The position numbers were made by a program, and so were the translations under genes. This document shows, one piece after another, positions 283-7,467 of a stretch of 64,000 bases of DNA. This stretch comes from Allomuricauda sp. (lineage in GTDB: Bacteria; Bacteroidota; Bacteroidia; Flavobacteriales; Flavobacteriaceae): positions 96,843 through 160,842 of the forward strand of contig JBLWSV010000003.1 of assembly GCA_048270465.1 (NCBI GenBank), in the 5' to 3' direction. Position 1 is the stretch's first letter. Each line of letters starts with the position of its first letter. The notes beneath the pieces were generated by a model. That model had not been told where the DNA came from. It searched no databases and was given only the letters and a program-made list of their open reading frames with translations.

Positions 283-1605
283 ATGAGAAAAAATTTGCTT
301 TCTGCATTCACCATGCTCTTTGCAGGCACCCTTCTTTTTGCACAAGAAGTGGCTTATGAAGAGTATGACCTGGACAATGGGCTCCACGTGATCCTTCACC
401 AGGACAATTCGGCCCCCGTGGTGACCACTGCGGTAATGTACCACGTGGGATCAAAGGATGAAGATCCCCAAAAAACCGGATTCGCCCATTTCTTCGAACA
501 TTTACTCTTCGAGGGGACCAAGAACATTGAACGTGGTGAATGGGACAAAATAGTATCTTCCAATGGGGGTAGTGGCAATGCCAACACCTTTTTGGACCGC
601 ACCTATTATTATGAGACCTTCCCGTCCAACAGTCTGGAAGTTGGTCTTTGGCTCGAATCCGAAAGGCTGATGCACCCCATTATCGGGCAGGTTGGGGTGG
701 ACACCCAAAAAGAGGTGGTACAGGAAGAAAGAAGGTTGCGTGTGGACAATTCACCCTACGGAGCATTTTTTGAGCAGCTTCTTAAAAACCTGTACACCAA
801 GCATCCTTATCGCTGGGGGGTCATAGGATCGTTGGACCATTTGGCCAGTGCCACATTGGACGATTTCAAAAAATTCAACCAGACGTATTACGTGCCCAAC
901 AATGGTGTGTTGGTGGTCGCTGGGGATTTTGACACAGAAAAGACCAAAAAAATGATCGCCGATTATTTTGGCCCCATCCCAAAGGGAGCGGAAATACCGA
1001 GACCCAATATCAAGGAAGATCCCATCACCAAAACCGTTTTTGCTTCCTACAACGACCCGAACATACAAATTCCAGCCATTTTGTTGGCATACAGAACACC
1101 GGGGCAGGGACAACGGGACGCTTACGTGATCGATATGATCTCCACCTATCTGAGCGATGGAGAAAGCTCCAAACTCTATAAAAAATTGGTGGACGAGAAA
1201 AAAATGGCCCTACAGATCCTTTCCGTGCCCATCAATGCGGAAGATTATGGTTCCTATATAGTGGGGGGCCTTCCGGTGGGCGACAACTCCATCCAGGACA
1301 TCAAAAAGGAAATTGACGAGGAAATCCTTAAACTGCAAATGGAGCTCATCTCCGAAAAGGATTACCAAAAACTCCAGAACAAGTTTGAAAACCAGTTTGT
1401 CAATGCCAACAGTACCATTCAGGGCATTGCCAACTCATTGGCCGAAAACTATATGCTGAAGGACGATACCAACCTCATCAACACCGAGATTGATATTTAT
1501 CGCTCCATTACCCGTGAAGAGATCATGGAAGTGGCCAAAAAATACCTAAAGGTGAACCAACGTGTGGAACTTGAGTATTTACCAGAACAAAAAGCAGCCA
1601 ATTAA
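283..1605 (+). CDS. M16 (pitrilysin/insulinase) family zinc peptidase, catalytic subunit
   Basis: 440 aa; signal peptide; inverted zinc motif HFFEH (HxxEH); NANT..DRTYY and downstream EERR. Confidence 0.92.
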   Translation: MRKNLLSAFTMLFAGTLLFAQEVAYEEYDLDNGLHVILHQDNSAPVVTTAVMYHVGSKDEDPQKTGFAHFFEHLLFEGTKNIERGEWDKIVSSNGGSGNANTFLDRTYYYETFPSNSLEVGLWLESERLMHPIIGQVGVDTQKEVVQEERRLRVDNSPYGAFFEQLLKNLYTKHPYRWGVIGSLDHLASATLDDFKKFNQTYYVPNNGVLVVAGDFDTEKTKKMIADYFGPIPKGAEIPRPNIKEDPITKTVFASYNDPNIQIPAILLAYRTPGQGQRDAYVIDMISTYLSDGESSKLYKKLVDEKKMALQILSVPINAEDYGSYIVGGLPVGDNSIQDIKKEIDEEILKLQMELISEKDYQKLQNKFENQFVNANSTIQGIANSLAENYMLKDDTNLINTEIDIYRSITREEIMEVAKKYLKVNQRVELEYLPEQKAAN

Positions 1606-1606
1606 G

Positions 1607-3679
1607 ATGAAAAAATATATAGTATTGACCGTGCTGTCCCTTTTTATGACGGCATCTTACGCACAGATAGACAGGAGCAAGCAACCCAAGCGGGGACCTG
1701 CCCCTGAAATCAATTTGAAGGAACCCGCCCGCTTCGAACTCAGCAATGGGCTAAAGGTATTGGTGGTGGAAAACCACAAATTGCCCAGGGTACGCATGCA
1801 ATTGACCATTGACAACCCACCTATCCTGCAAGGGGACAAAGCCGGGGTTTCCGACCTTACCTCAAGCATGCTGGGGAAAGGCTCCAAGAACATCCCCAAG
1901 GACGATTTCTACGAAGAAGTGGACTTTTTGGGAGCCAATATCTATGTAGGGGACCAAAGTGCCTTTGCCAGCTGCCTTTCCAAATATTTTCCAAGAATTT
2001 TGGAACTTTTGGCCGATGCCGCACTCAATCCAGATTTTACCCAAGAAGAGTTTGAAAAGGAAAAGGAAAAACTCATCACCGGACTAAAATCCCAAGAAAA
2101 AGATGTCTCTGCCATTGCAGACAGGGTACAATTGGCCTTAGCCTATGGCAAAAACCATCCGTTTGGGGAAATCACATCGGAAGAAACCGTGAGCAACGTG
2201 ACCTTGGCAGATGTAGAGCAGCACTACCGGTCTTACTTTGTTCCCGCAAATGCTTATTTGGTAGTAATAGGCGACGTAACGCTCGATCAGGTAAAGGAAC
2301 TGGTGACCAAACACTTTACGCCATGGTCCAAAGCTGTTCCCCCATCCTTCACCTATACTGACCCCAAGGATGCACAGTACACCCAGATCAACTTTGTGGA
2401 TGTGCCCAATGCCGTACAGTCCGAAGTGGCCGTACAGAACATTACCCACTTAAAAATGAAGGACGAGGATTATTTGGATGCACTCATGGCCAACAGGATC
2501 TTGGGTGGAGGTTCACAGGCCCGATTGTTCAAAAACCTACGTGAGGACAAGGGTTATACCTACGGATCCTATTCCGGCATCAGGGGCAACAAGTATAGCC
2601 CCATGCGGTTCAATGCTTATGCCCAGGTAAGGAATGCCGTTACGGACAGTTCCGTGGTCCAGATTTTGCAAGAAATAGACAAGATCACCTCCGAGCCCGT
2701 CTCCGAAGAAGAACTGGCCAATGCCAAGGCCAAATATGCAGGCAGCTTTGTCATGGCGCTGGAAAGACCAGAAACCGTAGCCGAATATGCGTTGAACATT
2801 GAAACAGAAGACCTCCCCAAGGATTTTTACAAAACCTATCTGGAGCGTATTGATGCCATAACGGTTGAAGATGTCCAAAAAGCGGCCCAAAAACATTTTT
2901 CCACCTCCAATGCACGAATCGTTGTTACGGGAAAAGGAAGCGATGTACTGGAAAATCTGGAAAAAGTCACCTTCAAGGGAAAAACAGTTCCCGTCCTTTA
3001 CTATGACAAATATGCCACCCAAACGGAAAAACCCAACTTTAATGAAGAAGTCCCCGAAGGGGTCACTGCCAATTCCATTTTGGAAAAATACCTAGAGGCC
3101 ATTGGAGGCAAGAGTAAATTGGAAGGTGTGGAGTCTTATTCCATGGTCGCCGAAGCAGAAATGCAGGGCATGAAATTGGAACTTGAGATGAAGAAAACCA
3201 CCAAAGACCAATTTATGCAGGACGTAAAAGTGATGGGAAATTCCATGCAAAAGCAAGTTTTGGACGGTGACAAAGGCTACATGGTCGTTCAGGGTCAGCG
3301 CAAGGACCTGTCACCGGAAGAGGTTGCAAAAATCAAGGAAGAATCTGCCGCTTTCCCAGAGTTGAACTATTTGGCCGCAGGCGACATCATCTTGGAGGGC
3401 ATAGAACCCGTTGGCGACAAAAAGGCCTACAAGCTGAAAATCAGTGATAAGAAAACTGCTTTTTATGATGTTGAGTCCGGCCTGAAAATCCAAGAGGTGA
3501 GTGTGGAAGAAATTCAGGGCCAACAAATGTCCAGCACTATGGGCTATGGTGATTATCAAGGAGTTTCCGGGATCAAGTTCCCGTTTAAGATCACCCAGAG
3601 CATGGGACCACAAAACTTCGAGTTCTTGGTAAAGGAACTCAAGGTGAACGAAGGCGTCGATGCTTCTGATTTCAAATAA
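1607..3679 (+). CDS. M16 family peptidase-like subunit lacking HxxEH, with extra C-terminal beta-rich domain
   Basis: Likely start ATG 1607 (MKKYIVL..., signal peptide), 1 nt after upstream TAA; M16 fold motifs (LSNGLKVLVVENHKLP, RLFKNLREDKGYTYG); no HxxEH. Confidence 0.88.
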   Translation: MKKYIVLTVLSLFMTASYAQIDRSKQPKRGPAPEINLKEPARFELSNGLKVLVVENHKLPRVRMQLTIDNPPILQGDKAGVSDLTSSMLGKGSKNIPKDDFYEEVDFLGANIYVGDQSAFASCLSKYFPRILELLADAALNPDFTQEEFEKEKEKLITGLKSQEKDVSAIADRVQLALAYGKNHPFGEITSEETVSNVTLADVEQHYRSYFVPANAYLVVIGDVTLDQVKELVTKHFTPWSKAVPPSFTYTDPKDAQYTQINFVDVPNAVQSEVAVQNITHLKMKDEDYLDALMANRILGGGSQARLFKNLREDKGYTYGSYSGIRGNKYSPMRFNAYAQVRNAVTDSSVVQILQEIDKITSEPVSEEELANAKAKYAGSFVMALERPETVAEYALNIETEDLPKDFYKTYLERIDAITVEDVQKAAQKHFSTSNARIVVTGKGSDVLENLEKVTFKGKTVPVLYYDKYATQTEKPNFNEEVPEGVTANSILEKYLEAIGGKSKLEGVESYSMVAEAEMQGMKLELEMKKTTKDQFMQDVKVMGNSMQKQVLDGDKGYMVVQGQRKDLSPEEVAKIKEESAAFPELNYLAAGDIILEGIEPVGDKKAYKLKISDKKTAFYDVESGLKIQEVSVEEIQGQQMSSTMGYGDYQGVSGIKFPFKITQSMGPQNFEFLVKELKVNEGVDASDFK

Positions 3680-3747: not shown

Positions 3748-5859
3748 TTAGAAACTATATTGTACAAATGCAGATAAGTTCCTGCCCGGGTCATTTATTG
3801 GTACCCTTCCATAATCCGGCTGGTTGACAAAGGAAAAATTCAGGTGGTTGTTGTAGGTCACATCAAAAATATTTGATGCCGCTACGCCCACGGTAACATG
3901 CTCAAACGGTTTGGCACCAAAGCTAAGATCCACAATACCATATCCGTCCGTAACCCTTTCCCCAAAAGAAGGTGCAATATCGGTTTGTTTGGAGGTGATT
4001 GTGTATGTGGCCCCTGCCCACAGCTTTTGTTTTTCAAAACGAAGGTTAAACCTGGATACCAAAGGAGGTGTCAAGGGAAGCGATTCATCCAAATCGCTGT
4101 TCTTTGCATAGACATAGGACACTTCAGTTTTAAAAGTGAAATCATCCAAAAAAACCAATTGGGCAAATGCTTCAAAACCTGTTTTGTAAGCTTTGTCAAG
4201 GTTGGAAAATCTTTTCACTTCAGTCGGCTGCACCATGGGCATATACTTTTTGTCCAACGATGGATCGATAAGGGCAACGATATAGTTGTCATAAAAAGAA
4301 TAATAGACCGAGGCGCCATAATCAAACCCATCGAAAATATAGCCCTCAAAAGTGTTCTTGGCCTTAATGCCCAATTCAAACTGATTGTTCACCTCTGCGT
4401 CCAACAAAGGATTGCCTACATATTCATAGGGGTCTTGGCCCACTGCAAAATGGTTGATAAACCTTTCTATCATATTGGCTGAACGCACTCCTCTGCCATA
4501 GGCCAGTTCAATCAAAAAATCGGGGGTGGCCATATATTTAATGGAAGCCGTTGCACTGATATTGTTCTCGGTACGGGCATCCAGATCGGGATAAAGTGCC
4601 ACAAAATCATCGGCAGGGGCATCACTCTTAGACCTTACCAAATCGTACCGCAAGCCCACATTGGCCAAAAACTTGTTGGAAAAAGGATATTTGGCCTCTA
4701 CAAAAGCACCAAAGTCATTTATTTGGGAGTCTTGCCAAACCTCATCCACAAATTCCATGGGCATGGGCAGTACATCCCCGTTCATGTTCCGTTTCACCAA
4801 ACGGACCCGGCTTCCGGTGCGCCCAATGGAAATCGCATCCACACCGGTATATAGTTTGAGGTCTTCCATAGGCCGCCATTCCAGCTCAGCTCTTCCGCCC
4901 AAAGTGGTCGCATCCACCTCAGAAACTGCCTCTGTACTGGCAAAACTGGGCCTTAGAGAATTAGACATAATGTGATCTACCTTGGAACGGTACAATTTGG
5001 CACTGAAAGCCCTCAACGCCCCTGGCAATTCGTCCAGTTTGTAGTCCAGGGAAAGGACATTGCTGTTGTCTTCGTCCGTATCCATGGGGAGGCCGGCATG
5101 AAGCACATCCCTTCCAAAAGATTGTCTGAAACCAACCTGAACCCGTTGCTTTTCCCCAAGATTATACCCTACTTGAACCCCGTAATCGGTACTCTTGAAC
5201 GAAGAGGGAATTTCATTTCCATCACCATCCTCATAATTGCCAAAATCGCGGAGTCCAAAGTTGATGTCCACATCATATTGCTCCGCCACATATTTTACAT
5301 TGGCATAAGTGGTTATGGCATTTCCGTTGTTCTCGCCACCAAAGTTTGCCTTACCATGGTAGCCCTTTTCCTGTTTTTCAACTTCCTTGGTCACCAAATT
5401 GACGATGCCACCAAAAGTGGGGCCATACCTAAAGGTATAGGGGCCCTTGACTACTTCAATACGTTCTATCTCCTCTGGTAGCACATGGGTGGTAATGGGA
5501 TCCATACGGTTCGGACAGGCGTGCATTACCTTGGTGCCCCCATTGAACTGGATGTTCAATTGTTCATATTGTGACGCCCTAAAAGAAGGGTCGATGGCAT
5601 AGTTGCCCCTTTTGATCAGGGAAAACCCATTGATGTCCCTGAAAAGGTCAGCCACGTTTTTGGATTGTACTATTTTTTTGGAAGGCTCACTCTTGAAGGA
5701 GGAGAAAACCGGATCTGTGATGCTTTTTCCTTCAACAAGGACCTCGTCCAACTGAATTGGAGCTTTTGCAACGGAATCTTGCACGGTAATGACCTGCGCA
5801 TGGGATATTGCGGTCCCAACGAGCAAAACACACAGTTTTGCCATTGAACTGATATTCAT
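3748..5859 (-). CDS. TonB-dependent receptor, OprC/NosA-like copper transporter
   Basis: Likely start ATG 5859 (MNISSMAK); plug motif RIEVVKGPY; C-terminal GRNLSAFVQYSF; plug CPNRM (CxxxM) plus barrel HIM (HxM), the OprC-type copper site. Confidence 0.85.
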   Translation of the reverse strand: MNISSMAKLCVLLVGTAISHAQVITVQDSVAKAPIQLDEVLVEGKSITDPVFSSFKSEPSKKIVQSKNVADLFRDINGFSLIKRGNYAIDPSFRASQYEQLNIQFNGGTKVMHACPNRMDPITTHVLPEEIERIEVVKGPYTFRYGPTFGGIVNLVTKEVEKQEKGYHGKANFGGENNGNAITTYANVKYVAEQYDVDINFGLRDFGNYEDGDGNEIPSSFKSTDYGVQVGYNLGEKQRVQVGFRQSFGRDVLHAGLPMDTDEDNSNVLSLDYKLDELPGALRAFSAKLYRSKVDHIMSNSLRPSFASTEAVSEVDATTLGGRAELEWRPMEDLKLYTGVDAISIGRTGSRVRLVKRNMNGDVLPMPMEFVDEVWQDSQINDFGAFVEAKYPFSNKFLANVGLRYDLVRSKSDAPADDFVALYPDLDARTENNISATASIKYMATPDFLIELAYGRGVRSANMIERFINHFAVGQDPYEYVGNPLLDAEVNNQFELGIKAKNTFEGYIFDGFDYGASVYYSFYDNYIVALIDPSLDKKYMPMVQPTEVKRFSNLDKAYKTGFEAFAQLVFLDDFTFKTEVSYVYAKNSDLDESLPLTPPLVSRFNLRFEKQKLWAGATYTITSKQTDIAPSFGERVTDGYGIVDLSFGAKPFEHVTVGVAASNIFDVTYNNHLNFSFVNQPDYGRVPINDPGRNLSAFVQYSF

Positions 5860-5923
5860 TTTTTTATGTTTAAGATTAAACTTGATTGGCCATTGGTTCA
5901 TGGCCCTTTTTCAAATTATGATC

Positions 5924-6313
5924 TTAAACAATCGGAGGTTTATGTGGCTTAAGTGTAAACTGGTAGGAATAGTTGTTGGAATATTGAAAAGAAGTGGGAT
6001 CGATGCCCAATTCAATTTGCAGATTATAGCTTGGCAACTTCACCAAGAAAACAGTGAGCTGTTCCCATCCTATTATGGGCATGGGCCTTTCGTCCCCATC
6101 GGTCTGTGCCTGGAGCATCTTGGCCAACATACATTTACCATCGCAGTTCAGTTCGGGCCTGTCCTTGTTCTCACAAAGTTGTTCTATAAACCCTTCCCTG
6201 TTCAGGCTGTAGTACACATACATGGAAGAAAAGCGAAGATTGCCCACCATCACCAAAGCGATGAAGAGCAGGGAAAAAACATATCGACGATAAGAAGGCT
6301 TTGTCAATCCCAT
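5924..6313 (-). CDS. Small Cys-rich membrane protein upstream of the copper receptor (candidate regulatory leader protein)
   Basis: 129 aa from ATG 6313; N-terminal hydrophobic segment; CENKDRPELNCDGKC; C-terminal KPHKPPIV. Confidence 0.75.
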   Translation of the reverse strand: MGLTKPSYRRYVFSLLFIALVMVGNLRFSSMYVYYSLNREGFIEQLCENKDRPELNCDGKCMLAKMLQAQTDGDERPMPIIGWEQLTVFLVKLPSYNLQIELGIDPTSFQYSNNYSYQFTLKPHKPPIV

Positions 6314-6368
6314 CAATCTTGCTTTAAGAAATCCAATGGATTACAAAATTAAACATGGCGTCCGGTTC

Positions 6369-6392
6369 AAAAGGTGACTTTTGTCACTTTTT
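6369..6392. promoter_or_regulatory. CRP/FNR-like inverted repeat between divergent genes
   Basis: AAAAGGTGAC-TTTT-GTCACTTTTT; core GGTGA-N6-TCACT resembles TGTGA-N6-TCACA. Confidence 0.45.
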
Positions 6393-6468
6393 ATTTTTCT
6401 GATGGTATTTTGCGAACATCGATGGACAGCCCCGCACAAATGGTTAAATTTGGGTCAAAATCAGCACC

Positions 6469-6903
6469 ATGAAAAAAACGCATTTACTACTTGCCTTCGT
6501 TTTTTTACTCTTCAATCTTGCCTGCAAAGAAGAAAAAAAAACACCTGAAGGCCCCACCCAAATGGAACAGGTCATGGCCATCCACGATGAGGTGATGCCC
6601 AAAATGGGAAAATTGGGGAAATTGGTCGGGCAGCTCAAAAGCAAAGTGGACACTACCGAAGTGGGCCAGCAATACGAAGCTGCCATGAAAGACCTTCAGG
6701 AAGCCAACACTGCCATGATGGATTGGATGCGGGATTTTGGCGCCAGATTTGATTCCGATGAAATCCTCAATGGCAAAGAACTTACCGAAGAGAAACAGCA
6801 ATGGTTGGACGAGGAGGAAGAAAAGGTGAAAATTCTCAAGGAAAAAATAAACGGGAGCATTGAAAGGGCCGAGGCACTGTTGGCACAGGCCAAGGAAAAT
6901 TGA
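6469..6903 (+). CDS. Helical Met-rich lipoprotein of unknown function
   Basis: 144 aa; lipobox NLAC followed by KEE; HDEVMPKM and MMDWM motifs. Confidence 0.8.
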   Translation: MKKTHLLLAFVFLLFNLACKEEKKTPEGPTQMEQVMAIHDEVMPKMGKLGKLVGQLKSKVDTTEVGQQYEAAMKDLQEANTAMMDWMRDFGARFDSDEILNGKELTEEKQQWLDEEEEKVKILKEKINGSIERAEALLAQAKEN

Positions 6904-7467
6904 TCAATTTTTCCACCTCAAGCTTTCCATGATCTTCCGAATGTCGTTCTGCAAATACATGGCCGCCGGAAGAATGGAATCGTAATTGGGCTTGGCGTAA
7001 AAATAGAGCGACCCTGTCACAAAATGGTCGGTACTATCGGTCACATAGAACTGGGACTGTGATGCGGCATTCCCGCTCACTTCATAGAACATGCCGTACA
7101 CTCTGGTATCTTCGTTCACAAAGGGTTGTTCCACAATATTGTCCGCCTTCACCACGTGCTCATAGGATAGTTTTTGTGCATCTATGAGCAAGGTGTCCAA
7201 ATTTCCGGTCACGGGTTTATAGGTAAGATAAATGGCGCCGTTCATGCCCGGGTAATCCAAGACCAGCGAACAATCCTTGTTCTCTTTGATGTTAGACAAA
7301 GTATTACGGTCAAAAGTGTAGGCGCAGTCCAAATCGGCTTCCATGTACTGGCCCATGGGGTAGTCCAACCGCAACATGGCCTTGGGTTTGGGCAACACAT
7401 CTTCTTTACAACCAACAAAAAAAAGTATCAGGGCCGGAAGCAAGAGAATCCATCGGTTATTTTTCAT
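6904..7467 (-). CDS. gldD: Gliding motility lipoprotein GldD
   Basis: Lipobox FVGC; PKPKAMLRLDYP, YGMFYEVSGNAASQSQFYVTDS, GSLYFYAKPNYDSI; overlaps gldE stop. Confidence 0.93.
   Translation of the reverse strand: MKNNRWILLLPALILFFVGCKEDVLPKPKAMLRLDYPMGQYMEADLDCAYTFDRNTLSNIKENKDCSLVLDYPGMNGAIYLTYKPVTGNLDTLLIDAQKLSYEHVVKADNIVEQPFVNEDTRVYGMFYEVSGNAASQSQFYVTDSTDHFVTGSLYFYAKPNYDSILPAAMYLQNDIRKIMESLRWKN

What the first reader, a model, noticed from the sequence alone, without database searches (positions are those of the whole stretch)
5860..6313. Candidate copper-sensing, ribosome-stalling leader protein controlling the TonB receptor
Seen: a 129-aa ORF 64 nt upstream of and co-oriented with the OprC-like gene; one N-terminal hydrophobic segment, a C-x9-C-x3-C cluster, and a C-terminal KPHKPP just before the stop; a GGCCAT/ATGGCC hairpin (5888-5905) lies in the spacer. 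Established: Bordetella CruR (DUF2946) is an exported Cys-motif uORF protein with a C-terminal RAPP arrest motif that couples copper sensing to translation of the downstream TonB receptor. Inference: same architecture and context, but a different Cys spacing and a non-RAPP proline motif, so possibly an uncharacterised Bacteroidota version of that switch.
Basis: partly seen in the sequence, partly recalled or inferred. Interest (0 to 1): 0.75.

Follow-up and report, generated by a model that had tools for sequence, protein, structure and literature searches.

The report
Copper-sensing stalling leader gene, Bacteroidota type
A small membrane-targeted, cysteine-rich gene in front of a copper-uptake receptor belongs to a large unnamed Bacteroidota family built like the proteobacterial copper-sensing, ribosome-stalling leader peptides CruR and CutF, so it probably switches copper import on and off, though stalling has not been measured.

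Summary
On the minus strand, a 129-aa ORF (5924-6313) has an N-terminal membrane segment, an invariant C-x9-C-x3-C cluster and ...KPPIV-stop. It lies 64 nt upstream of a TonB receptor that keeps all four copper ligands of Pseudomonas OprC.

The ORF belongs to a large family with no Pfam or NCBIfam model: 3371 cluster representatives at E<=1e-10, found in 143 of 401 Bacteroidota genomes searched. In 203 of 206 members the Cys cluster and a terminal PP are both kept, 62-70 residues apart, with PP usually 2-5 residues before the stop.

Members sit first in their operons, ahead of OprC-type receptors, TBDT+PepSY_TM, MbnP/MbnH and YtkA-like lipoproteins. DUF2946 (CruR/CutF) heads the first three of these operon types in Proteobacteria.

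The spacer folds into a hairpin (z -4.6). Its base pairs the leader's stop-codon region with positions -17..-8 of the receptor start, a region that a ribosome paused on PP would cover.

DUF6660, which sits before metal efflux pumps, ends in the same hydrophobic-Q/K-PP-xx-stop.

The family is not a DUF2946 member and its motif is not RAPP. I read it as a new variant of a known kind. Stalling and copper response are untested. This scan noted similar Bacteroidota leaders earlier on other DNA.

The parts
5924..6313 (-). Leader gene: 129-aa small exported or membrane-anchored Cys-rich protein (stop TAA at 5924-5926)
   Evidence: Translation. 62 close homologues. 3371 cluster representatives at E<=1e-10. 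No Pfam or NCBIfam family.
6233..6280 (-). N-terminal hydrophobic segment (VFSLLFIALVMVGNLR), preceded by K5/R9/R10: a signal-anchor with predicted N-in, C-out orientation
   Evidence: Sequence. AlphaFold helix 8-37 with pLDDT >90. Hydrophobic but otherwise unconserved columns across the family. The orientation is inferred from the positive-inside rule.
6119..6178 (-). Sensor core LCENKDRPELNCDGKCMLAK, with invariant C47, N49, C57, C61 (C-x9-C-x3-C); candidate Cu(I) site
   Evidence: 100% conserved Cys and Asn, with P53 95%, G59 99% and L63 96% in 149 sequences. Metal binding is inferred, not tested.
5933..5983 (-). C-terminal 17-residue conserved module Y111-x-N-x-Y-S-Y/F-x-F-x3-I/P-F/H-[H/K/R]-P126-P127, preceded by an unconserved linker (aa 91-110); candidate arrest segment
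   Evidence: Column conservation. PP invariant, with H/K/R before PP in 168 of 203. Local profile similarity to the DUF6660 C-terminus.
5933..5938 (-). Pro126-Pro127 codons (CCT CCG), two codons before the stop: proposed pause site
   Evidence: Synonymous variation of these codons between loci.
5867..5930 (-). Spacer RNA structure in three tiers. The outer clamp pairs 5921-5930 (UGUUUAAGAU, containing the stop UAA) with 5867-5876 (AUCUUAAACA, positions -17..-8 of the receptor AUG). The middle stem is 5911-5917 with 5879-5885. The inner hairpin is 5888-5905.
   Evidence: strand folding: -24.3 kcal/mol, z -4.58, 0 of 200 shuffles. A hairpin is present in 28 of 29 related spacers with different sequences. 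Stop-to-start pairing is 11.1 bp against 5.0 in shuffles.
3748..5859 (-). OprC-type TonB-dependent copper receptor (start MNISS... with signal peptide)
   Evidence: Plug plus barrel domains. Best NCBIfam hit is TIGR01778 TonB-copper, 240 bits, below the cut-off. Best solved relative is P. aeruginosa OprC, E 2.5e-45.
5503..5517 (-). CPNRM in the plug, equivalent to OprC C143/M147 copper ligands
   Evidence: Alignment to 6fok_A. Coordinates checked. The motif is present in the downstream receptor of 27 of 30 genera.
4966..4974 (-). HIM in the barrel, equivalent to OprC H323/M325 copper ligands
   Evidence: Alignment to 6fok_A. Coordinates checked.
6344..6371 (-). Likely promoter of the two-gene unit: Bacteroidota -7 box TAATTTTG (6344-6351) and TTTG (6368-6371) 16 nt upstream of it
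   Evidence: Sequence. TAnnTTTG occurs upstream of the small ORF in 25 of 48 loci against 6.8 expected, and in none of 33 short spacers. This is a consensus match only.
6374..6387 (-). Palindrome GTGACAAAAGTCAC next to the promoter: candidate operator of a CRP/FNR-type regulator
   Evidence: Sequence. The same or a near-identical palindrome lies upstream of the leader gene in at least 8 of 48 loci from other genera. The regulator class is inferred from the half-site pattern (my own knowledge).

Best explanation
The small ORF is a cis-acting, copper-sensing leader of the two-gene unit (leader plus OprC-type copper receptor).

Shown here:
- It is a conserved protein-coding gene with an N-terminal membrane-targeting segment.
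- It has an invariant three-Cys cluster about 20 residues after that segment.
- It has an unconserved linker, then a conserved 17-residue C-terminal segment ending in invariant Pro-Pro two codons before the stop.
- The spacer RNA pairs the stop-codon region with positions -17..-8 of the receptor start codon.
- Relatives head several different copper-uptake operon types.

Inferred:
- The nascent chain is inserted co-translationally.
- When the ribosome reaches the PP codons, about 65 residues separate the last Cys from the peptidyl-transferase centre. The Cys cluster has then just emerged on the periplasmic side.
- The ribosome pauses on PP, helped by the conserved upstream residues in the exit tunnel.
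- A ribosome paused there covers about 15 nt downstream, which is 8 of the 10 nt of the clamp's 5' arm. That keeps the receptor's initiation region open, and possibly also keeps transcription going.
- Copper binding to the Cys cluster changes folding or disulfide formation, and so the pulling force on the chain. This changes how long the pause lasts.
- Because the downstream genes are importers, the expected logic is that of CruR: long pause and receptor ON when copper is scarce, quick release and clamp re-closure (OFF) when copper is present.

The direction of the switch and the relative share of translational and transcriptional control are not determined.
For: Family and motifs:
- 3371 cluster representatives at E<=1e-10.
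- Found in 172 of 300 other Flavobacteriaceae genera and 143 of 401 Bacteroidota genomes.
- 203 of 206 members have both C-x9-C-x3-C and a terminal PP. Spacing is 62-70 aa, and the tail after PP is 2 aa in 109, 3 in 33, 4 in 24 and 5 in 16.
- Conservation is concentrated in the sensor core and the last 17 residues, with an unconserved linker between them.

Context:
- The next gene has the OprC CPNRM site in 27 of 30 genera.
- Paralogues head MbnP/MbnH, YtkA-lipoprotein-TBDT-MbnPH and TBDT+PepSY_TM operons.
- DUF2946/CruR genes lead OprC-type TBDT, PepSY_TM and MbnPH operons in Proteobacteria (PMC9426467).
- The gene is first in its unit in about 40 of 46 loci.
- A promoter box lies upstream of the leader but not in the spacer.

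RNA:
- The window spacer has z -4.58.
- Hairpins of different sequence occur in 28 of 29 spacers, with mean z -1.8.
- Stop-to-start pairing is 11.1 bp against 5.0 bp in shuffles.
- The 32 nt from the first Pro codon onward pair with the start region, while upstream coding windows do not.

Modularity:
- DUF6660, a different Cys-rich family placed before CzcA-type efflux pumps, ends in the same [F/L]-Q/K-P-P-xx-stop in 14 of 14 parsed members.
- Only that C-terminal segment aligns with this family.
- DUF6769 members end in RAPP or RGPP.

Precedent: CruR arrest on RAPP has been shown in vitro (PMC12992588). CutF stalls on a plain PPP in a copper-dependent way and melts a stem-loop that shields the next gene's ribosome-binding site.

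Weak hint: in RNA run X3 a contig covers 5932-6318, which is the leader ORF alone, at higher depth than the receptor and with no cover of the spacer or of the promoter gap.
Against: - No pausing, copper binding or regulation has been measured for any member.
- The motif is hydrophobic-[H/K/R]-P-P. In RAPP-type arrest peptides the Arg two residues before the first Pro is irreplaceable, and only small residues are tolerated at the position directly before it (PMC12992588). The well-understood RAPP mechanism therefore does not apply.
- A bare PP would normally be resolved by EF-P.
- With a deep alignment AlphaFold gives pLDDT 80 over the whole chain, including the C-terminal coil. That could mean a defined, stable protein.
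- The clamp statistic is moderate (z>1.5 in 15 of 28 loci), and nearby segments are expected to pair to some extent.
- Modelling a ribosome at PP raised the predicted openness of the start region only from 0.47 to 0.54, the same as a ribosome at the stop codon.
- The spacer is A/U-rich, which is unlike a Rho loading site.
Confidence: 0.58

Rival explanations
1. The small protein is a stable, inner-membrane-anchored periplasmic copper-handling protein. It could be a chaperone that takes Cu(I) from OprC or MbnP-type uptake systems, or a thiol-redox helper that keeps the receptor's Cys ligand reduced. On this reading the C-terminal PP segment is structural or a partner-binding tail, and co-location reflects a functional partnership, not regulation.
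For: - Three invariant cysteines suit a trigonal Cu(I) site.
- With a deep alignment AlphaFold reaches pLDDT 80, with helices 39-46, 60-72 and 83-90.
- The gene travels with copper-uptake genes in many contexts.
- Alternating aromatic residues (Y-x-N-x-Y-S-F-x-F) could form a beta-strand.
Against: - pTM is only 0.47, and models of family members in AlphaFold DB superpose poorly (rmsd 14-28 A, TM<0.5). No solved fold matches.
- The gene is nearly always first and never found after its partners.
- The same C-terminal PP-xx-stop occurs on an unrelated Cys-rich family placed before efflux pumps. That is hard to explain by a shared binding partner.
- The strict shortness of the tail after PP, and the pairing of the stop region with the next start, have no role in this model.
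Confidence: 0.22
2. Plain translational coupling without metal-regulated arrest. The leader is translated constitutively, and ribosomes reaching its stop codon open the stop-to-start clamp so that the receptor is translated in proportion. PP merely slows termination a little. Copper control, if any, comes from the promoter-proximal palindrome and a transcription factor.
For: - The clamp includes the stop codon.
- A ribosome at the stop opens the start region as much as one at PP in the folding model.
- A sequence-conserved GTGAC-N4-GTCAC palindrome sits at the promoter in several genera.
Against: This does not explain why an export signal, an invariant three-Cys cluster, and a fixed 62-70-residue distance from that cluster to PP are kept across the phylum. 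It also does not explain why the leader accompanies several unrelated copper-uptake operon types.
Confidence: 0.12
3. The leader acts mainly on transcription, as CruR does. The paused ribosome blocks premature termination or RNA decay in the spacer, and the spacer hairpin is an attenuator or processing site rather than a start-site clamp.
For: - CruR works through Rho-dependent termination.
- RNA-run contigs cover the leader ORF but not the spacer or the 5' part of the receptor.
- The hairpin position is fixed, with its 3' edge 32-37 nt from the receptor ATG in about 19 of 28 loci.
Against: - The hairpins are not followed by U-tracts.
- The spacer is short (57-94 nt) and A/U-rich, not C-rich.
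- The RNA evidence comes from low-depth metatranscriptome contigs of related strains.
Confidence: 0.08

Closest known systems
CruR (Bp2923) of Bordetella pertussis, DUF2946 / PF11162 (Roy et al. 2022, PMC9426467; arrest shown in vitro in PMC12992588)
   Same: - Small protein with an N-terminal export signal.
- Conserved Cys motif.
- Pro-Pro a few residues before the stop (3 in CruR, 2 here).
- Conserved Cys-to-PP spacing.
- First gene of operons for copper-uptake TBDTs (including OprC type), PepSY_TM and MbnPH.
- Precedes an importer, so the same regulatory logic is expected.
   Different: - No sequence or profile match to PF11162.
- C-x9-C-x3-C instead of CXXC.
- Spacing of about 64-65 aa instead of 45.
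- Motif hydrophobic-[H/K/R]-P-P instead of R-A-P-P.
- Spacer of 57-94 nt, A/U-rich and folded as a stop-to-start hairpin, instead of a 162-nt G+C-rich spacer with a Rho site.
- Found in Bacteroidota, where DUF2946 was not reported.
CutF of Rhodobacter capsulatus, DUF2946 (PMC9973294; bioRxiv 10.1101/2025.02.05.636593)
   Same: - Sec-targeted leader with a CxxxC pair plus upstream Cys.
- A non-RAPP polyproline stall site at the C-terminus.
- A stem-loop between the leader and the next gene that hides its ribosome-binding region and would be opened by the stalled ribosome.
   Different: - CutF has PPP and a cleavable signal peptide, and it controls a detoxifying multicopper oxidase (ON with copper). 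Here the motif is xPP, there is an apparent signal-anchor, and importers lie downstream (expected OFF with copper).
- There is no Shine-Dalgarno to shield in Bacteroidota. The clamp instead covers -17..-8 of the start.
- No detectable homology.
DUF6660 (PF20365), uncharacterised Bacteroidota family
   Same: - Same size and N-terminal signal, and Cys-rich.
- Ends in [F/L]-Q/K-P-P-xx-stop.
- First gene before a metal transporter, with a strongly structured spacer.
- The C-terminal 28 residues are the only part that aligns with this family.
   Different: - Different sensor motif (PC...CSPFCxCxCC).
- The HMM does not match this family.
- Mostly precedes CzcA-type RND efflux pumps, not importers.
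- Nothing on it was found in the searched literature.
DUF6769 (PF20558), uncharacterised Bacteroidota family that an automatic name labels 'DUF2946 domain-containing'
   Same: Small exported His/Cys-rich proteins ending in LRAPP or RGPP 2-6 residues before the stop. One ends RAPPIV-stop, compared with KPPIV-stop here.
   Different: - True RAPP/RGPP motif and an HHHH motif.
- Rare: 3 of 301 Bacteroidota genomes.
- No profile similarity to this family (hhalign probability 4.7%).
OprC of Pseudomonas aeruginosa (PDB 6fok; Bhamidimarri et al. 2021), for the downstream receptor
   Same: Best solved relative (E 2.5e-45). All four copper ligands are conserved: C143, M147, H323, M325. The same motif was noted in a flavobacterial TBDT by PMC11213822.
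   Different: The receptor scores below the TIGR01778 cut-off (240 against 472 bits). P. aeruginosa oprC is reported as transcriptionally controlled, and its gene neighbourhood differs.

Membership tests
DUF2946 (CruR/CutF), PF11162 | Match to the Pfam PF11162 profile | tested here: not met
   No hit at E<=1 for the window protein. None of 149 family members hit at E<=0.01. No PF11162 match anywhere in the window's genome.
DUF2946 (CruR/CutF), PF11162 | N-terminal export signal (signal peptide or N-in/C-out membrane segment) | tested here: met
   Basic residues are followed by a segment of about 16 hydrophobic residues. AlphaFold helix 8-37. This is a prediction only.
DUF2946 (CruR/CutF), PF11162 | Conserved Cys pair for copper binding (CXXC in CruR, CxxxC in CutF) | tested here: met
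   C57-x3-C61 plus C47 are invariant in 149 sequences. The spacing is that of CutF, not CruR. Copper binding itself was not tested.
DUF2946 (CruR/CutF), PF11162 | C-terminal RAPP (CruR) or PPP (CutF) stall motif a few residues before the stop | tested here: not met
   PP is invariant and 2-5 residues from the stop. The preceding residues are hydrophobic-[H/K/R]: H in 89, K in 58, R in 21 of 203. There is no Arg-Ala/Gly and no third Pro, apart from 10 members with PPP.
DUF2946 (CruR/CutF), PF11162 | Conserved spacing of about 45 residues between the Cys motif and the Pro motif | tested here: not met
   The spacing is conserved but different: 62-70 residues, mode 64-65.
DUF2946 (CruR/CutF), PF11162 | First gene of copper-homeostasis operons (TBDT including OprC type, PepSY_TM, MbnPH ...) | tested here: met
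   compared with PMC9426467 section 10.
DUF2946 (CruR/CutF), PF11162 | Ribosome arrest at the Pro motif and copper-dependent control of the downstream gene | not testable with these tools
   This needs toeprinting, ribosome profiling or reporter assays.
DUF6660, PF20365 | Match to the Pfam profile, including the PC...CSPFCxCxCC motif | tested here: not met
   No hit. Profile-profile alignment covers only the C-terminal 28 residues, with probability 26%.
DUF6769, PF20558 | Match to the Pfam profile, including HHHH and RAPP | tested here: not met
   No hit. hhalign probability 4.7% against three members.
OprC-type TonB-dependent copper receptor (downstream gene) | CxxxM-HxM copper site and plug plus 22-strand barrel | tested here: met
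   CPNRM and HIM align with OprC C143/M147/H323/M325. Plug and barrel domains are present.
OprC-type TonB-dependent copper receptor (downstream gene) | Score above the TIGR01778 equivalog cut-off | tested here: not met
   239.6 bits against a cut-off of 472.45. It is the best-scoring family but a distant member.

The most novel reading that the evidence does not exclude
Bacteroidota, which largely lack Shine-Dalgarno-guided initiation, use a modular translational metal switch. A common C-terminal stall module (hydrophobic-[H/K/R/Q]-Pro-Pro, 2-5 codons before the stop) and a stop-to-start RNA clamp are combined with interchangeable exported sensor domains: this C-x9-C-x3-C family for copper importers, and DUF6660 for metal efflux pumps. 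The stall motif would be a new class, distinct from RAPP, and the switch would be a main route of post-transcriptional metal control across the phylum.
Probability: 0.4. Interest if true: 0.8.

Novelty: new variant of a known kind. Interest (0 to 1): 0.62.

Why it matters
- If the reading holds, several thousand clusters of 'hypothetical proteins' in Bacteroidota get a function. Copper uptake in marine and soil flavobacteria feeds haem-copper oxidases and N2O reductase, and it would be controlled by a nascent-chain sensor and not only by transcription factors.
- It would add a non-RAPP, PP-based arrest module that works in a phylum with unusual translation initiation. It would also show that the CruR/CutF principle arose, or diverged beyond recognition, outside Proteobacteria.
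- The shared C-terminal module on importer leaders and efflux leaders gives a natural experiment on how one stall device can be wired for opposite responses.
- In practice, the family deserves a profile model so that genome annotation stops missing or truncating these genes. Many database entries start at an internal Met and lack the membrane segment.

Tried and rejected
- **Receptor-leader complex prediction.** I ran the receptor (residues 36-717) with the leader's periplasmic part. It returned 'no answer' and is not used for or against binding.
- **Fold searches.** Searching the AlphaFold model against PDB and AlphaFold DB clusters found only uncharacterised family members with poor superposition. 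No known fold emerged.
- **Shallow-alignment model.** AlphaFold with 25 sequences gave pLDDT 60. I replaced it with a model from a 149-sequence alignment.
- **Spacer alignment.** A MAFFT/RNAalifold consensus of 16 spacers gave no structure, because the sequences are too divergent to align. The hairpin evidence therefore rests on per-sequence folds and shuffles, not on counted compensatory pairs.
- **Start-region openness.** Modelling a ribosome at PP against one at the stop codon gave a small, non-discriminating effect.
- **Intrinsic terminator in the spacer.** Rejected: there are no U-tracts after the hairpins.
- **Own promoter for the receptor in the spacer.** No TAnnTTTG in 33 spacers. This is a consensus scan only, so weak promoters are not excluded.
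- **Alternative receptor start at 5901 (MNQW...).** Rejected: relatives start at the signal peptide, and the ATG at 5901 lies inside the hairpin.
- **RiPP precursor.** I considered this because a radical-SAM/SPASM gene lies divergent from a distant homologue in L001. I dropped it because the neighbour is not conserved in other loci.
- **Profile-profile comparison with DUF2946 itself.** Not done, because no DUF2946 sequences could be fetched with the tools at hand.
Full report
**What is there.** The finding lies on the minus strand. A 129-aa ORF runs from ATG 6313 to TAA 5926-5924. It has:
- a short basic N-terminus (K5, R9, R10);
- a hydrophobic segment (about residues 12-27);
- the cluster C47-x9-C57-x3-C61, inside LCENKDRPELNCDGKC;
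- the C-terminus ...KPHKPPIV-stop.

Exactly 64 nt downstream starts a 703-aa TonB-dependent receptor (ATG 5859, signal peptide MNISSMAKLCVLLVGTAISHA). The only correction is that PP is two residues before the stop, not directly at it.

**The receptor is a copper importer by its ligands.** Its best family is TIGR01778 (TonB-copper), below that model's cut-off. Its best solved relative is P. aeruginosa OprC (E 2.5e-45). In the alignment, CPNRM and DHIM fall on OprC C143/M147 and H323/M325, the CxxxM-HxM copper site.

**The small ORF is a member of a large, unnamed family.**
- Neither Pfam nor NCBIfam recognises it, and none of 149 diverse relatives hits any Pfam family.
- A word-indexed search found 62 relatives in Flagellimonas/Muricauda and allies.
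- A profile search of 1.8 billion representatives found 7149 at E<=0.001 and 3371 at E<=1e-10, nearly all 110-135 aa and matched to within a few residues of their C-terminus.
- In genome samples it was found in 172 of 300 other Flavobacteriaceae genera. It was also found in 143 of 401 Bacteroidota genomes spread over many families.
- The window's genome has one copy.

**Anatomy conserved across the family.**
- In 149 sequences C47, N49, C57, C61, P126 and P127 are invariant. P53, G59 and L63 are at 95% or more.
- Of 206 members, 203 have both the Cys cluster and a PP after it. The three exceptions look truncated.
- The number of residues between the last Cys and PP is 62-70 (mode 64-65).
- The tail after PP is 2 residues in 109, 3 in 33, 4 in 24 and 5 in 16.
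- The residue before PP is H, K or R in 168.
- Conservation falls into blocks: a hydrophobic but otherwise free N-terminal segment; a highly conserved sensor core (residues 35-65); an acidic stretch; an unconserved linker (91-110); and a conserved last 17 residues (Y111-x-N-x-Y115-S-F/Y-x-F-x3-I-F-H-P-P).
- The Pro codons differ at synonymous positions between loci, so the protein is what is conserved.

This is the layout of a nascent-chain sensor: a tunnel-length conserved C-terminus, a spacer, and a sensor domain placed at a fixed distance. With about 30-35 residues in the exit tunnel and about 20-25 in the translocon (my own estimate), a 65-residue distance puts the Cys cluster just outside the membrane when PP is at the catalytic centre.

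**Genomic context.**
- In 30 loci from different flavobacterial genera the next gene on the same strand carries CPNRM in 27.
- Over about 66 unique loci from the family- and phylum-level samples, the next gene is:
  - an OprC-like receptor (32);
  - MbnP, followed by the di-haem peroxidase MbnH (11);
  - a YtkA-like lipoprotein, followed by TBDT, MbnP and MbnH (12);
  - a TBDT followed by a PepSY_TM protein (4);
  - MetA-pathway-like outer-membrane proteins with a Cys-rich N-terminus (3);
  - a SusC/SusD pair (1);
  - or a second copy of the leader.
- The upstream neighbour is divergent in 23 of 46 loci, and same-strand with a gap of 86 nt or more in a further 17.
- Roy et al. reported that DUF2946/CruR genes sit first in operons with TBDTs (including OprC type), PepSY_TM, MbnPH-like genes, ScoC, PCuAC, YcnI and CopC. 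They found them in Proteobacteria and a few other phyla, and do not list Bacteroidota (PMC9426467). This Bacteroidota family shares the OprC-type TBDT, PepSY_TM and MbnPH part of that niche.

**The spacer RNA.**
- The 91 nt from the Pro codons to just past the receptor start fold into one three-tier hairpin of -24.3 kcal/mol (z -4.58, 0 of 200 dinucleotide shuffles as stable).
- Its outer stem pairs UGUUUAAGAU (5930-5921, including the stop UAA) with AUCUUAAACA (5876-5867, positions -17..-8 of the receptor AUG).
- In 28 of 29 related short spacers there is a hairpin. The sequences are unrelated (for example GUUCAAUAA/UUAUUGAAC, CCAAAAGAC/GUCUUUUGG) and the mean z is -1.8. The hairpin's 3' edge is 32-37 nt from the ATG in about 19 of 28.
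- Pairing between the stop region and the 30 nt before the next start averages 11.1 bp, against 5.0 in shuffles (z>1.5 in 15 of 28).
- The two 16-nt windows starting at the first Pro codon are the ones that pair with the start region. Coding windows further upstream do not.
- A ribosome with Pro126 in the P site should cover about 15 nt downstream (general knowledge of ribosome footprints). Here that is 8 of the 10 nt of the clamp's 5' arm.
I took it as a lead and tested it.
- A sequence-based alignment of spacers was too poor for a covariation count.
- A simple model of start-site openness did not separate a ribosome at PP from one at the stop codon.

**Promoter.** A Bacteroidota -7 box (TAATTTTG, 6351-6344) with TTTG 16 nt upstream of it lies in front of the leader. 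Across loci TAnnTTTG occurs upstream of the leader in 25 of 48 (6.8 expected) and in none of 33 short spacers (1.8 expected). A consensus scan cannot exclude weak promoters.

**Relation to known families.** CruR and CutF define the known kind:
- a DUF2946 protein with an export signal, a Cys pair, a Pro motif three residues before the stop, and a fixed 45-residue spacing;
- CruR arrests on RAPP and controls Rho-dependent termination;
- CutF stalls on PPP in a copper-dependent, EF-P-sensitive way and melts a stem-loop over the next gene's ribosome-binding site.

The present family shares the architecture, the operon position and the spacer structure. It fails the membership tests:
- no PF11162 match;
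- a different Cys pattern;
- a different spacing;
- a motif that is not RAPP. In RAPP peptides the Arg is irreplaceable, and only G, S, D or P are tolerated in place of Ala. Here that Ala position holds H, K or R, and the Arg position holds a hydrophobic residue.

In working principle it is nearest to CutF (plain polyproline plus a stem-loop) and in regulatory target to CruR (an importer).

**A shared C-terminal module.**
- A language-model look-up pointed to DUF6769 and DUF6660 as the nearest named clusters.
- DUF6769 is rare. Its members end in LRAPP or RGPP, and there is no profile similarity to this family.
- DUF6660 is common: 57 of 151 Flavobacteriaceae genera, with two copies in this genome.
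- Every parsed DUF6660 member ends [F/L]-Q/K-P-P-xx(x)-stop. Thirteen of the fourteen lie 76-124 nt before a CzcA-type RND pump, and the fourteenth lies 80 nt before a TBDT.
- DUF6660 spacers are strongly structured (z -1.7 to -5.6). In several, a closing stem starts right after the stop codon.
- Profile-profile comparison aligns only the last 28 residues of the two families (probability 26%).

So two sensor families with different Cys motifs and opposite downstream functions carry the same terminal PP device. That is easier to explain by a regulatory module than by a shared structural role.

**Structure and the main rival.**
- With a deep alignment AlphaFold gives pLDDT 80 but pTM 0.47. It predicts a long N-terminal helix, three short helices and a C-terminal coil.
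- Family members in AlphaFold DB superpose badly, and no solved fold matches.
- A stable membrane-anchored copper chaperone or thiol helper remains possible (about 0.2). The gene order, the short tail, the clamp and the shared module argue against it.
- A complex prediction with the receptor gave no answer and is not used.

**Transcript hint.** In one RNA library of a related strain a contig spans 5932-6318, that is, the leader alone. Its depth is 5.6, there is no cover of the spacer or of the divergent promoter gap, and the receptor body has depth 2.2. A second RNA run has a contig at 5949-6212. This fits a leader transcript that is more abundant than the receptor message. The contigs are low-depth and DNA carry-over cannot be excluded.

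**Verdict.** This is a Bacteroidota counterpart of the CruR/CutF copper-sensing leader peptides, in an undescribed family with its own Cys pattern and its own PP motif. I class it as a new variant of a known kind. Pausing, copper sensing and the sign of regulation are inferences that need the experiments listed. The scan had already met related leaders on other DNA.

Noticed in passing
window 6374-6387 (minus strand), next to the leader's promoter: The palindrome GTGACAAAAGTCAC (GTGA-N6-TCAC, like CRP/FNR-type sites) sits here. The same or near-identical palindromes (GTGAC-N4-GTCAC, with GTAAC-N4-GTTAC variants) lie 45-90 nt upstream of the leader gene in at least 8 of 48 loci from other genera. 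This suggests a conserved transcription-factor operator on top of the leader mechanism.
   Followed up: partly
L084 1498-1806 (G000:C14:22612-22911) and L085 1501-1821 (G000:C4:38901-39212), same genome as the window: The genome has two DUF6660 genes. One ends ...LFQPPQV-stop, 123 nt before a CzcA-like RND efflux pump. The other ends ...LFKPPRMI-stop, 80 nt before a TonB receptor. In the family sample 14 of 14 parsed members end [F/L]QPPxx(x)-stop, and their spacers are strongly structured. In several, a closing stem (UUCAGUU...AACUGAA) begins right after the stop codon.
   Followed up: partly
L080 1486-1917 (minus), L081 1489-1878 (minus), L083 1489-1908 (plus): These are small exported His-rich proteins (HHHH) ending in RGPP or LRAPP 2-6 residues before the stop (DUF6769 or near it). 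The one in L080 lies directly upstream of an RND membrane-fusion protein with a His-rich N-terminus. They look like true RAPP-type leaders in Bacteroidota.
   Followed up: partly
L044 6593-7625, L046 6263-7474, L045 about 6439-7200: Two copies of the leader gene lie in tandem, ahead of a YtkA-lipoprotein - TBDT - MbnP - MbnH operon, in three genera including a species of the window's own genus.
   Followed up: no
L059, L060, L078 (gene after the leader): MetA-pathway-like outer-membrane proteins follow family members here. Their mature N-terminus carries a Cys-rich CD(A/F/V)CGC motif. They may be metal-binding channels.
   Followed up: no
window 283-1605 and 1562-3679 (plus strand), convergent with the receptor: A pair of M16 peptidase-like genes lies here. 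Their best NCBIfam hits are the EF-P 5-aminopentanol-modification-associated YfmH/YfmF families, well below cut-off (about 100 bits against 250-285). The same pair is syntenic next to the leader-receptor unit in L007. Most likely this is generic M16 similarity. I note it only because EF-P bears on polyproline pausing.
   Followed up: no
window 5932-6318 and 6471-6700: In RNA run X3, contigs cover the leader ORF and the divergent neighbouring gene. They do not cover the promoter gap (6319-6470) or the spacer and 5' part of the receptor. That pattern looks like real transcripts and not DNA carry-over.
   Followed up: partly
database entries of the family: Many deposited homologues are annotated from an internal Met (98-108 aa, starting MYVYYS...) and so lack the membrane segment. 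One is mislabelled as HisH. Gene callers appear to mis-start this family routinely.
   Followed up: no
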